This document shows positions 9,405 to 27,029 of a DNA stretch of 32,000 bases, in pieces. The stretch is from Candidatus Kuenenia stuttgartensis (GTDB lineage: Bacteria > Planctomycetota > Brocadiia > Brocadiales > Brocadiaceae), in contig NZ_LT934425.1 of the NCBI RefSeq assembly GCF_900232105.1, forward strand, positions 2,610,001 to 2,642,000. Direction: 5' to 3'. Each line of letters opens with the position of its first letter. Position 1 is the first letter of the stretch. Position numbers and translations under genes: made by a program. The notes under the pieces are model-generated. The model ran no database searches. It was not told the DNA's origin and saw only the letters and a program-made list of their open reading frames with translations.

Positions 9405-10100
9405 TTACGGTTTGTTTTTATAAGCGTCAATCAATTCATCCCGCGTAAAGAGGGACTCAAATATAACCATTTTCTTTTCTATATTCTCCCTGCCGCCTTC
9501 CTGCCTGTCTACAAGCGCAATTACCTTAACAATTTCAAGTTTGTGTTCCCTTGCCCTGTCTATGGCCTGAATAGTAGAACCCCCTGTGGTAACCACATCG
9601 TCCACAATCACCACCTTATCGCCTTCCGACACATTGCCCTCAATAACCTTCATAAGCCCGTGTGATTTGGCTTCCTTCCTGATAACAAATGCCTGAACTG
9701 GTTTTACTCTGAGGTCTGACCATTGATCTCCGACCTCTGACCTCTGACCTCTGGCTTCTGACATAGCGCTTACCATGGCGGTTGCAAATGCTATAGGATC
9801 TGCGCCATGGGTTAGGCCGCCTATGGCATCTACGTCAAGATGCCTGATTTTTTCATAAAAAAGACTGCCAATAAGCAACATTGAGGATGGATTAAGGGTT
9901 GTCGCCTTACAATTAATATAATAATTGCTTGTCTTTCCGGATGTAAGCTTGAAAACAGGCCTTTCATCATACTTAAACGATCTTTCTATAAGTGCTTGCA
10001 GTAATGCTTTTCTGGCGTTATCGATGTTTATGGGCGAGTTTTGTACAGATTCAAAATTAATTGTCAATTGTATACTTCTCCTTTTTAAGCCGTCTTCCAT
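9405..10100 (-). CDS. pyrE: Orotate phosphoribosyltransferase carrying an in-frame repeat-encoded insertion
   Basis: 231 aa. FKLTSGKTSNYYINCK, IGGLTHGADPIAFA, FVIRKEAKSHG, and the PRPP motif VVIVDDVVTTGGS. The extra segment SEARGQRSEVGDQWSDLRV is encoded by the heptamer array at 9727-9782. Confidence 0.9.
   Translation of the reverse strand: MEDGLKRRSIQLTINFESVQNSPINIDNARKALLQALIERSFKYDERPVFKLTSGKTSNYYINCKATTLNPSSMLLIGSLFYEKIRHLDVDAIGGLTHGADPIAFATAMVSAMSEARGQRSEVGDQWSDLRVKPVQAFVIRKEAKSHGLMKVIEGNVSEGDKVVIVDDVVTTGGSTIQAIDRAREHKLEIVKVIALVDRQEGGRENIEKKMVIFESLFTRDELIDAYKNKP
9727..9782. repeat. Tandem heptamer array (8 units, consensus CTCTGAC) inside pyrE
   Basis: ctctgag gtctgac cattgat ctccgac ctctgac ctctgac ctctggc ttctgac, phased by hand. 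Confidence 0.85.
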
Positions 10101-12771: not shown

Positions 12772-12928
12772 TGACCAATGACCAATGACGAAACACCTTC
12801 TAATTACAAGCCCAAATTCCGCAGACAAGGAAAAATGTTCAATATTCAATTCTCAATGTTCAATTCTCAAATTGTTGCTCATTTGCCTCTATTCTTTTAC
12901 ATTGAGCATTGAATATTGAATATTAATT
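12772..12928. repeat. Heptamer-periodic repeat block (TGACCAA x3, then AATNYTC arrays forming a long hairpin)
   Basis: tgaccaa tgaccaa tgacgaa (12772-12792). aatgttc aatattc aattctc aatgttc aattctc (12834-12868), opposed by attgagc attgaat attgaat (12901-12921). Confidence 0.8.
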
Positions 12929-26962: not shown

Positions 26963-27018
26963 AAAATAATCTAATCCTCAATCCTCAATCTGCAACTTGC
27001 AATTAGCCGACTGTAGAT
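26963..27018. repeat. Heptamer-periodic array (8 units)
   Basis: aatcctc aatcctc aatctgc aacttgc aattagc cgactgt agattgc tgactgc, between anmK and the Usp gene. Confidence 0.75.
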
Positions 27019-27029
27019 TGCTGACTGCC

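What the first reader, a model, noticed from the sequence alone, without database searches (positions are those of the whole stretch)
9727..9782. Eight-unit heptamer tandem array translated inside the essential pyrE gene
Hand phasing gives ctctgag gtctgac cattgat ctccgac ctctgac ctctgac ctctggc ttctgac. On the coding strand it encodes SEARGQRSEVGDQWSDLRV, inserted between the GADPIAFA helix and the FVIRKEAKSHG strand/loop of orotate phosphoribosyltransferase. Homologues, as I recall them, have only a short connector there. A 7-nt period is out of phase with codons, so every unit gain or loss would frameshift pyrE unless it happens in threes. Similar heptamer arrays occur intergenically at 12772-12928 and 26963-27018. 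In style they resemble the short tandemly repeated heptamers (STRR) known from filamentous cyanobacteria; TGACCAA at 12772 is the complement of the STRR unit TTGGTCA.
Basis: partly seen in the sequence, partly recalled or inferred. Interest (0 to 1): 0.6.

Follow-up and report, generated by a model that had tools for sequence, protein, structure and literature searches.

The report
Heptamer repeat fossil inside pyrE
A decayed run of eight 7-base repeats, one of hundreds that spread through the DNA between genes in this anammox bacterium and its sister species, sits in frame in a floppy surface loop of the single-copy pyrimidine enzyme PyrE; it looks like a tolerated passenger, not a switch.

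Summary
The array is real, but it lies at window 9707-9762, 20 bases left of the stated coordinates. It has eight units, and 35 of 49 positions match at lag 7.

It sits in the minus-strand pyrE gene (9405-10100). It turns a 6-residue helix-to-strand connector, as found in 46 of 48 homologues, into 23 residues (net +51 nt, +17 aa).

By exact size and G+C the genome is Ca. Kuenenia stuttgartiensis MBR1. It carries about 300 heptamer arrays, and 86% lie outside ORFs. Some have units identical to cyanobacterial STRR1 and STRR2.

The two array families I could search for, and the pyrE insert, occur in this species and one sister species. They are absent from the two other Kuenenia species and nearly absent from 40 other Brocadiaceae.

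Since insertion, the pyrE array has kept its length in every allele seen: at least 6 alleles, and the exact protein is on 298 contigs. Its sequence has diverged about 5 times faster than the rest of the gene. By contrast, 12 of 14 arrays outside confirmed coding sequence differ between the two species.

My reading is a near-neutral passenger insertion filtered by frame, orientation and position.

The kind is known: heptamer arrays inside ORFs are published for Beggiatoaceae, and earlier notes of this scan describe them on other DNA. Read-level data could not be obtained.

The parts
9707..9762 (-). Degenerate 8-unit heptamer array. The coding-strand unit is (T/C)CAGAGG, a rotation of GTCAGAG; on the + strand it reads CTCTGAC.
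   Evidence: TRF period 7, 8.0 copies, score 56. Lag-7 identity 35/49. The same unit occurs as arrays at 10 or more other loci of the genome.
9699..9761 (-). The enlarged connector, codons S114-P134 (21 codons). It replaces the 4-codon QGSN/KGRN of insert-less Kuenenia species, a net gain of 51 nt or 17 aa.
   Evidence: Codon-level comparison with G027 and G028 orthologues. AlphaFold2 (AF2): helix 100-120 runs into the insert, then coil 121-135 with mean pLDDT 51 for residues 121-130.
9405..10100 (-). pyrE (orotate phosphoribosyltransferase), longest ORF 231 aa including stop. An alternative TTG start is at 10065-10067 (L12). The ancestral start position is ATA here (I24, 10029-10031).
   Evidence: It is the only pyrE match in the genome. 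The PRPP motif VVIVDDVVTTGGS and the flexible loop RKEAKSHG are intact.
12772..12789 (.). Intergenic TGACCAA x2.6, the reverse complement of STRR2 TTGGTCA.
12811..12927 (.). Dispersed element of about 100 nt. It holds 7/14-nt arrays (12834-12870) and an inverted ATTGAAT x2.4 (12908-12924).
   Evidence: 13 BLAST hits in the genome. An 89%-identical copy lies at a non-syntenic intergenic site in the sister species.
26971..27026 (.). Intergenic compound heptamer array with drifting units (TCAATCC, TCAATCT, GCAACTT, GCAATTA, GCCGACT, GTAGATT, GCTGACT).
   Evidence: TRF AATCCTC x2.6 at 26973-26990. The longer register was read from the sequence.

Best explanation
The segment is a fossil of one heptamer array of the (T/C)CAGAGG type. 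It entered the pyrE connector between the GADPIAFATAMVSAM helix and the QAFVIRK strand in the common ancestor of this species and one sister species. That is the same branch on which heptamer arrays multiplied across the genome.

It survived because three filters were met. Net length is 51 nt, or 3 x 17. The orientation is the only one without stop codons: GTCAGAG reads V-R-G-Q-R-S-E through all three phases, while CTCTGAC contains TGA. The site is a helix-to-strand connector, which in a parallel alpha/beta fold lies on the edge opposite the active site (inferred from fold topology).

The array is translated as an extra, mostly disordered 17-residue loop with no specific function. Since fixation it has drifted by point substitutions under relaxed constraint. 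Changes in unit number, which would frameshift a single-copy biosynthetic gene, have been removed by selection, or have become rare as the units decayed.

Shown: the insert, its phylogenetic distribution, the genome-wide family, the constant length, the faster divergence and the low model confidence.

Inferred: neutrality, the mode of entry, and that the protein is made with the loop.
For: **Insert and its distribution**
- The 23-residue connector occurs only in the window's protein and its closest relatives; 46 of 48 homologues have 6 residues.
- It is present in G000, G029 and three metagenome contigs. It is absent in the other two species of the genus, G027 and G028.

**Genome-wide family**
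- Exact tandem repeats of 3 or more copies: 70 at period 7, against 0 in a Markov-3 control. Periods 6, 8 and 9 give 21, 3 and 7.
- There are 306 TRF period-7 arrays, and only 14% lie in crude ORFs that cover 79% of the genome.
- Array density is the same in tandem, convergent and divergent spacers, 0.27-0.29 per kb.

**Same clade for burst and insert**
- (CAGTCNN) arrays give 17 and 53 hits in G000 and G029, and 0 in 42 other Brocadiaceae genomes.
- (TTCGTAN)x3 gives 10 and 19 hits, against 5 hits in two other genomes.
- TRF period 7 shows no excess in 279 kb of G027 or 103 kb of G028.

**Relaxed constraint**
- Nucleotide divergence in the array is 16-18%, against 3.2-3.3% in the rest of the gene (Fisher p 3e-4 and 8e-5).
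- The insert is the most variable part of the protein among 15 cluster members.

**Length stability**
- All 15 members, at least 6 insert alleles, have the same insert length.
- 12 of 14 anchored orthologous heptamer loci differ in length or content between G000 and G029, mostly by multiples of 7.

**Structure**
- AF2 mean pLDDT is 86.8 with the core above 95. Residues 121-130 average 51, and 126-129 are below 50.
- The fold matches solved OPRTases.

**Not an artefact**
- The exact protein is on 298 contigs from several sources.
- The genome matches the closed PacBio MBR1 assembly: 4,406,153 bp, 41.1% G+C, 419x depth.
Against: - Translation of the loop, and the absence of minority frameshifted molecules, are therefore inferred.
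- Retention through speciation is also what a useful loop would show.
- The mode of entry is unknown. There is no target-site duplication and no flanking element sequence; the BLAST matches are confined to the array itself.
- G000 still has 3.1 perfect units (CAGAGGT x3), so slippage is not impossible.
- The G029 versus metagenome-allele comparison shows no significant excess divergence in the array (p 0.18).
Confidence: 0.8

Rival explanations
1. Origin variant: the array was amplified in place by replication slippage from a local seed in pyrE. On this view it arose independently of the genome-wide family rather than being copied or inserted from it.
For: Heptamers are the repeat size said to be most prone to slippage in many bacteria (Mrazek 2007, as summarised in PMC4679880 and PMC4692102). 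No flanking element sequence and no target duplication were seen. The ancestral connector CAGGGCAGT has some CAG content.
Against: The insert-less orthologues have no 7-nt seed; their CAG triplets are 5 nt apart. The unit is the same as in 10 or more other arrays, including those flanking a PF05635 gene at 2478150-2478629. That makes 8 TRF rows where about 0.5 would be expected by chance (the expectation is my estimate).
Confidence: 0.12
2. The insert is an adaptive new loop, for example a contact or regulatory surface on PyrE, kept because it is useful.
For: It has been retained at constant length in all alleles and in both species. AF2 extends helix 100-120 into the first 7 insert residues.
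Against: The insert is the fastest-changing part of the protein: 4-7 of 19 residues differ, against 6-9 of 189 elsewhere. Its sequence is just the three-phase reading of a repeat. Model confidence is low. It is absent from every other homologue, and those enzymes evidently function without it.
Confidence: 0.06
3. The array is an active contingency (phase-variation) tract that switches pyrE off and on by gaining or losing 7-nt units.
For: The period is not a multiple of 3, the tract lies mid-gene, and 3.1 perfect units remain in G000.
Against: There was no length variant among 15 cluster members or 5 independent assemblies. The units are degenerate (71% matches). The gene is single-copy and biosynthetic, in an autotroph. 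Arrays outside confirmed coding sequence do vary, so variation would have been visible.
Confidence: 0.02
4. The array is an assembly or sequencing artefact.
For: None found.
Against: The same protein is on 298 contigs from NCBI, JGI, ENA and Logan. The array is present in a second species and in three metagenomes. The source assembly is PacBio at 419x with over 99.99% concordance in an independent run (PMC5854607).
Confidence: 0.005

Closest known systems
Cyanobacterial STRR sequences (short tandemly repeated repetitive heptamers CCCCAGT, TTGGTCA, CAACAGT of Calothrix/Nostoc/Anabaena; Mazel et al. 1990, from my own knowledge; cited as ref. 39 in PMC4692102)
   Same: Tandem 7-nt units, hundreds of dispersed and mostly intergenic arrays, and compound arrays whose unit drifts along the array. 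This genome has perfect arrays of CCCCAGT (1296588, 1409960) and TTGGTCA (2246107, 3650707). Cyanobacterial STRRs are also known inside a functional gene, the RNase P RNA (Vioque 1997, from memory).
   Different: The host is an anammox planctomycete, not a heterocystous cyanobacterium. The pyrE unit GTCAGAG is not one of the three named STRR units, and no CAACAGT arrays were found. Here the array is inside a protein-coding gene and is translated. RNase P RNA of this genome carries no array.
TAACTGA heptanucleotide direct repeats of marine Beggiatoaceae (MacGregor 2015, PMC4679880)
   Same: A non-cyanobacterial genome full of intergenic heptamer repeats. A minority lie inside ORFs, and only in the stop-free orientation, where they read as a 7-residue periodic peptide. 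The paper raises the same idea of tolerated insertions at permissive positions.
   Different: There is one dominant unit there, against about 200 canonical units here. Those repeats concentrate upstream of start codons, whereas here density is even across spacer types. In-ORF copies there are mostly at protein ends; here the array is mid-enzyme.
GGGNATC / GGGGA(C/T)T heptamer repeats of Xanthomonas and Nostoc (Rehm et al. 2015, PMC4692102)
   Same: Lineage-specific over-representation of heptamer repeats, under-represented in coding DNA, with variable unit number. GGGGACT is the complement of CCCCAGT, and that unit is present here.
   Different: Those are G-tract repeats proposed to form quadruplexes, with a preference for four units. 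The pyrE unit has no G-tract.
Rickettsia palindromic elements inserted in frame in housekeeping genes (Ogata et al. 2000, from my own knowledge; also named in earlier scan notes)
   Same: Selfish-looking repeat DNA tolerated in frame as an extra surface segment of conserved proteins.
   Different: Those elements are 100-150-bp palindromes. The pyrE array is a one-directional tandem repeat with no significant hairpin (z -1.2).
Heptamer-armed PF05635 (23S rRNA intervening-sequence protein) cassettes: Coxiella IVS with strain-variable GACAGAT repeats (Warrier 2016, PMC4990558), and earlier notes of this scan
   Same: In this genome 5-6 of 12 PF05635 hits lie within 300 nt of a heptamer array, against 3.6% expected. 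One gene (2478200-2478517) is flanked by arrays of the same CTCTGAC unit as pyrE.
   Different: There is no PF05635 gene at pyrE. About 300 arrays stand against 7 intact genes. PF05635 is present in 43 of 44 Brocadiaceae genomes, including those without the tested heptamer families, so it does not explain the burst.

Membership tests
Orotate phosphoribosyltransferase (PyrE, type I phosphoribosyltransferase) | Sequence and fold match to solved OPRTases | tested here: met
   5hkf E 1.7e-24. AF2 model against 5hki: Foldseek E 2e-19, TM (target) 0.86-0.90. PF00156 is listed for all homologues.
Orotate phosphoribosyltransferase (PyrE, type I phosphoribosyltransferase) | PRPP-binding motif and catalytic flexible loop intact | tested here: met
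   VVIVDDVVTTGGS and RKEAKSHG are present. R141, K145, D167, D168, T171, T172 and G173 fall in invariant or nearly invariant columns.
Cyanobacterial STRR | Tandem heptanucleotide units in many dispersed, mostly intergenic arrays | tested here: met
   70 exact arrays of 3 or more copies against 0 in the control. 306 TRF arrays, 86% outside crude ORFs.
Cyanobacterial STRR | Unit is one of CCCCAGT, TTGGTCA, CAACAGT | tested here: not met
   The pyrE unit is GTCAGAG. Elsewhere in the genome CCCCAGT and TTGGTCA arrays exist, 2 perfect loci each, and CAACAGT has none.
Cyanobacterial STRR | Host is a heterocystous cyanobacterium | tested here: not met
   The relatives are Ca. Kuenenia and other Brocadiaceae.
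Contingency locus (repeat-mediated phase variation) | Unit-number polymorphism among close strains or within a population | tested here: not met
   Insert length is identical in 15 cluster members, at least 6 alleles, and in 5 assemblies. Within-population reads were not available.
Contingency locus (repeat-mediated phase variation) | Long perfect repeat tract | tested here: not met
   71% matches, with the longest perfect run about 3.1 units (sequence read).
Palindromic in-frame elements (RPE-like) | Inverted-repeat or hairpin architecture | tested here: not met
   All units are in one orientation. RNA fold -18 kcal/mol, z -1.2, and 27 of 200 shuffles fold as well.
Heptamer-armed PF05635 cassette | PF05635 four-helix-bundle gene between two heptamer arms | tested here: not met
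   No PF05635 hit lies in the window; the nearest is at genome position 2478200, about 141 kb away. The pyrE insert consists of array only.

The most novel reading that the evidence does not exclude
The heptamer arrays of this two-species Kuenenia clade may not be passive slippage products. They may be written, and rewritten, by an active lineage-specific machinery that was possibly acquired horizontally. It could be the same one that makes STRRs in heterocystous cyanobacteria, given the identical CCCCAGT and TTGGTCA units and orthologous slots holding different units in sister species. On this reading the pyrE insert is a footprint of that activity inside a gene.
Probability: 0.15. Interest if true: 0.7.

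Novelty: new member of a known kind. Interest (0 to 1): 0.33.

Why it matters
For PyrE itself the finding matters little. It is a tolerated extra loop, useful mainly as a marker of a permissive site in the OPRTase fold and as a clade marker for two Kuenenia species.

The context is more interesting. A sharp, recent, clade-restricted burst of STRR-like heptamer arrays in a well-studied anammox bacterium, with a closed genome and close relatives that lack the burst, gives a clean comparison. It could be used to ask what makes heptamer arrays proliferate. That question is still open for cyanobacteria, Xanthomonas and Beggiatoaceae.

The pyrE array also dates the burst: it came after the split from the two insert-less species and before the split of the two carriers. 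It further shows how selection filters such insertions. Arrays are depleted more than 100-fold in coding DNA, only the stop-free orientation survives, net length is a multiple of 3, and the site is a loop.

Tried and rejected
- **Read-level check.** Independent assemblies and cluster members stood in for it.
- **Hairpin or palindrome in the mRNA.** Not significant.
- **STRR-style array in RNase P RNA, as in cyanobacteria.** The gene is 386 nt with no array.
- **PF05635 genes as the cause of the burst.** They are near some arrays but are present in 43 of 44 family genomes whatever their heptamer content.
- **AcrB-family gene as a second clade-specific in-frame insert.** The heptamer-like tract is present in all four Kuenenia species, so it is older.
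- **Other 'in-ORF' arrays.** Most of the other 41 fall in short spurious ORFs or in over-extended N-termini. Apart from pyrE, the other mid-protein arrays (AcrB, MurE-like) are older or weak; the clear one of 4.4-4.7 units lies in a large SBBP/DUF7948 protein.
- **Spacer-type preference of arrays.** None found.
- **Synteny beyond window 10978 with the sister species.** It breaks, so the window's own intergenic arrays could not be compared.
- **Literature.** The searches 'Kuenenia + heptamer' (0 papers) and 'Kuenenia + tandem repeat' found only the statement '260 short tandem repeats' in the MBR1 genome paper.

Full report
**Observation**

Tandem Repeats Finder (TRF) reports a period-7 array of 8.0 copies at window 9707-9762, with 71% matches, score 56 and consensus CTCTGAC. 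They start at 9707, not 9727, so the coordinates are off by 20. Identity at lag 7 is 35/49 and at lag 14 is 31/42. All other lags give 10-28%. Only 82 loci in the whole genome reach that lag-7 value.

The array lies in the minus-strand ORF 9405-10100 (231 aa, P0001). Its translation contains ...AMSEARGQRSEVGDQWSDLRVKPVQAFVIRKEAKSHG... as stated.

**The gene**

P0001 is an orotate phosphoribosyltransferase:
- It matches solved OPRTases (5hkf, E 1.7e-24).
- Its homologues carry PF00156 and are named OPRTase by their sources.
- An AlphaFold2 (AF2) model (mean pLDDT 86.8) superposes on M. tuberculosis OPRTase with TM 0.86-0.90.
- The PRPP motif and the catalytic flexible loop are intact.
- It is the only pyrE match in the genome.

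**The organism**

The genome is one contig of 4,406,153 bp with 41.1% G+C. These are exactly the figures given for the closed PacBio genome of Ca. Kuenenia stuttgartiensis MBR1, sequenced at 419x with over 99.99% concordance in an independent run (PMC5854607). That paper mentions only '260 short tandem repeats' and says nothing about heptamers.

**The insert**

In an alignment of 48 homologues, 46 have a 6-residue connector between the GADPIAFATAMVSxM helix and the QAFV(I/V)RK strand. P0001 and its 94%-identical relative P0002 have 23 residues.

At the DNA level the insert-less Kuenenia species read ATG-CAGGGCAGTAAT-ATTCAG or ATG-AAAGGGCGCAAT-ATTCAG. Here 63 nt replace those 12, a net gain of 51 nt or 17 codons.

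Within the genus, the window's genome (G000) and G029 carry the insert. G027 and G028 do not, and neither do 36 other Brocadiaceae orthologues. Three metagenome contigs (L009-L011) carry a third allele.

The majority consensus of the three alleles is a more regular array: TCAGAAG CCAGAGG TCAGAGG TCAGAGG CCGGAGA TCAGAGG TCAGGTC TCAGATC. The array has therefore been decaying since it arose.

**Structure**

In the AF2 model, helix 100-120 runs into the first insert residues. Residues 121-135 are coil, with mean pLDDT 51 for 121-130 and values below 50 for 126-129. The core is above 95.

A helix-to-strand connection in a parallel alpha/beta fold lies on the edge opposite the C-terminal ends of the strands, where the active site sits. 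This is inference from fold topology. I could not inspect coordinates.

**Evolution since insertion**

Divergence between G000 and either other allele is 16-18% in the 56-nt array. In the remaining 568 nt it is 3.2-3.3% (Fisher p 3e-4 and 8e-5).

In the 90% cluster of this protein, 15 members show at least six different insert peptides, all of the same length. Their overall length differences come only from start-codon calls. The exact P0001 sequence was seen on 298 contigs from several sources.

Fourteen orthologous heptamer loci could be anchored between G000 and G029. Twelve differ in length or content, mostly by multiples of 7 (7, 14, 21, 28 nt). One slot holds (ACAGTCT)x7.9 in G000 but an AAATACG-type array in G029. 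Only pyrE and one other locus are unchanged.

So arrays are dynamic where nothing constrains them and frozen in pyrE. This fits selection against frameshifts, helped by decay of the units. About 3.1 perfect units remain in G000.

**Genome-wide family**

- Exact tandem repeats of 3 or more copies number 70 at period 7. Periods 6, 8 and 9 give 21, 3 and 7, and a third-order Markov control gives 0 at period 7.
- TRF finds 306 period-7 arrays of 3 or more copies. Only 14% lie inside crude ORFs, which cover 79% of the genome.
- Most of the arrays inside ORFs fall in spurious short ORFs or over-extended N-termini.
- Units are diverse, about 200 canonical forms. They are far from random: AAATACG has 71 TRF rows, and the pyrE unit has 8.
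- Arrays are often compound, with units that drift along them.
- Perfect arrays of CCCCAGT and TTGGTCA, the cyanobacterial STRR1 and STRR2 units, occur at two loci each.
- Density is the same in tandem, convergent and divergent spacers, which argues against a position-specific regulatory role.
- BLAST of the pyrE array with its flanks finds only other arrays, never the flanks, so the insert is pure array.

**Clade restriction**

- (CAGTCNN) arrays of 3.7 or more units give 17 hits in G000 and 53 in G029. They give none in 42 other Brocadiaceae genomes, including complete single-contig ones and the two other Kuenenia species.
- (TTCGTAN)x3 gives 10 and 19 hits, with only 5 hits in two genomes of another genus.
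- A unit-agnostic TRF scan of 279 kb of G027 and 103 kb of G028 shows no period-7 excess: 5 and 0 rows, no more than at periods 8 and 9. G000 gives 14-46 rows per 280 kb.

The burst and the pyrE insert therefore map to the same branch.

**PF05635 lead from earlier scan notes**

Earlier notes on this genome (e1-2529370) and on other genomes tie heptamer arrays to PF05635 four-helix-bundle genes, the family found in 23S rRNA intervening sequences.

I confirmed part of this. Here 5-6 of 12 PF05635 hits lie within 300 nt of an array, against 3.6% expected. One gene is flanked by CTCTGAC arrays, the pyrE unit. Warrier 2016 does report strain-variable tandem heptamers in the Coxiella IVS.

But PF05635 genes occur in 43 of 44 Brocadiaceae genomes whatever their heptamer content, and none is near pyrE. 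They do not explain the burst or this insert.

**Mechanism: what is shown and what is inferred**

Shown:
- An in-frame heptamer array.
- Its restriction to the clade with the burst.
- Constant length together with accelerated substitution.
- A low-confidence loop on an otherwise confident fold.

Inferred:
- The array entered by whatever process disperses or seeds the arrays. There is no 7-nt seed in the insert-less orthologues.
- It survived because its net length is 3n, its orientation is the stop-free one (GTCAGAG has no stop in any phase, while CTCTGAC contains TGA), and the site is permissive.
- It is translated as a functionless loop.

Rivals are an adaptive loop, an active phase-variation tract, local slippage from a seed, and an artefact. 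They are weighed in their own sections of this report.

**Comparison with the known**

- Heptamer over-representation in bacteria is published (Mrazek 2007, as summarised in PMC4692102 and PMC4679880).
- Lineage-specific heptamer families are described for Calothrix/Nostoc (STRR), Xanthomonas/Nostoc (Rehm 2015) and Beggiatoaceae (MacGregor 2015).
- MacGregor 2015 already reports heptamer repeats inside ORFs, restricted to the stop-free orientation and read as 7-residue periodic peptides.
- Earlier notes of this scan describe in-frame heptamer arrays in housekeeping genes of Omnitrophota, Patescibacteria and Chloroflexota. The scan has therefore seen this phenomenon before on other DNA, and heptamer arrays were already noted in this same genome.
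- In the searchable library I found nothing on heptamers in Kuenenia.

My verdict is a new member of a known kind. The pyrE case on its own is modestly interesting. The clade-restricted burst is the better lead.

Noticed in passing
window 10029-10031 and 10065-10100: Insert-less Kuenenia PyrE proteins start at MNID.... In this lineage that codon is ATA (I24) and the ORF stays open upstream to a TTG (L12) and an ATG (M1). Public annotations use all three starts (208, 220/223 and 231 aa). AF2 gives residues 1-22 low confidence. The true start is unclear.
   Followed up: partly
window 12811-12927: A roughly 100-nt element with 7/14-nt internal repeats and an inverted ATTGAAT arm is dispersed, with 13 BLAST hits in the genome. 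In the sister species an 89%-identical copy sits at a different intergenic site, between the orthologues of window 5312 and 5388. It behaves like a small mobile element.
   Followed up: partly
genome 3654950-3655004 (L073:4950-5004) and other loci: Orthologous intergenic slots hold different heptamer units in the two sister species: (ACAGTCT)x7.9 here against an AAATACG-type array there. The slot at 3683621-3683777 also has quite different content. Arrays seem to be replaced as well as expanded or contracted.
   Followed up: partly
genome 4067990-4068035 (L017:2362-2407): An AcrB-family transporter gene has an in-frame heptamer-like tract (CAAAATT/CAAAATC, about 6 units, aa 787-802). It is present in all four Kuenenia species, so it predates the burst.
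   Followed up: partly
genome 3442300-3442614 (L059): One PF05635 (23S rRNA IVS protein) domain lies inside a 760-aa open frame. Similar open frames of 747-779 aa occur in the three other Kuenenia genomes, so this is a four-helix-bundle domain fused to a large protein.
   Followed up: no
genome 1032133-1032330, 2034956-2035093, 2709408-2709531, 3638798-3638986 and others: AAATACG arrays are paired with inverted TTTCGTA arrays 77-170 nt away at 8 or more loci. This is a hairpin-type element distinct from the one-directional pyrE array.
   Followed up: no
genome 484180-484439: The longest array in the genome is (GCTCATG)x28.3, followed directly by (CAGCTAT)x9. It lies a few kb from the CRISPR cluster that the MBR1 paper places at 489,976-498,766.
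   Followed up: no
genome 3459259-3459292 (L075:4259-4292): A TCTGACT array lies in the over-extended N-terminus of a cytochrome b gene. It differs by 28 nt (4 units) between the sister species, so it presumably lies upstream of the true start.
   Followed up: partly
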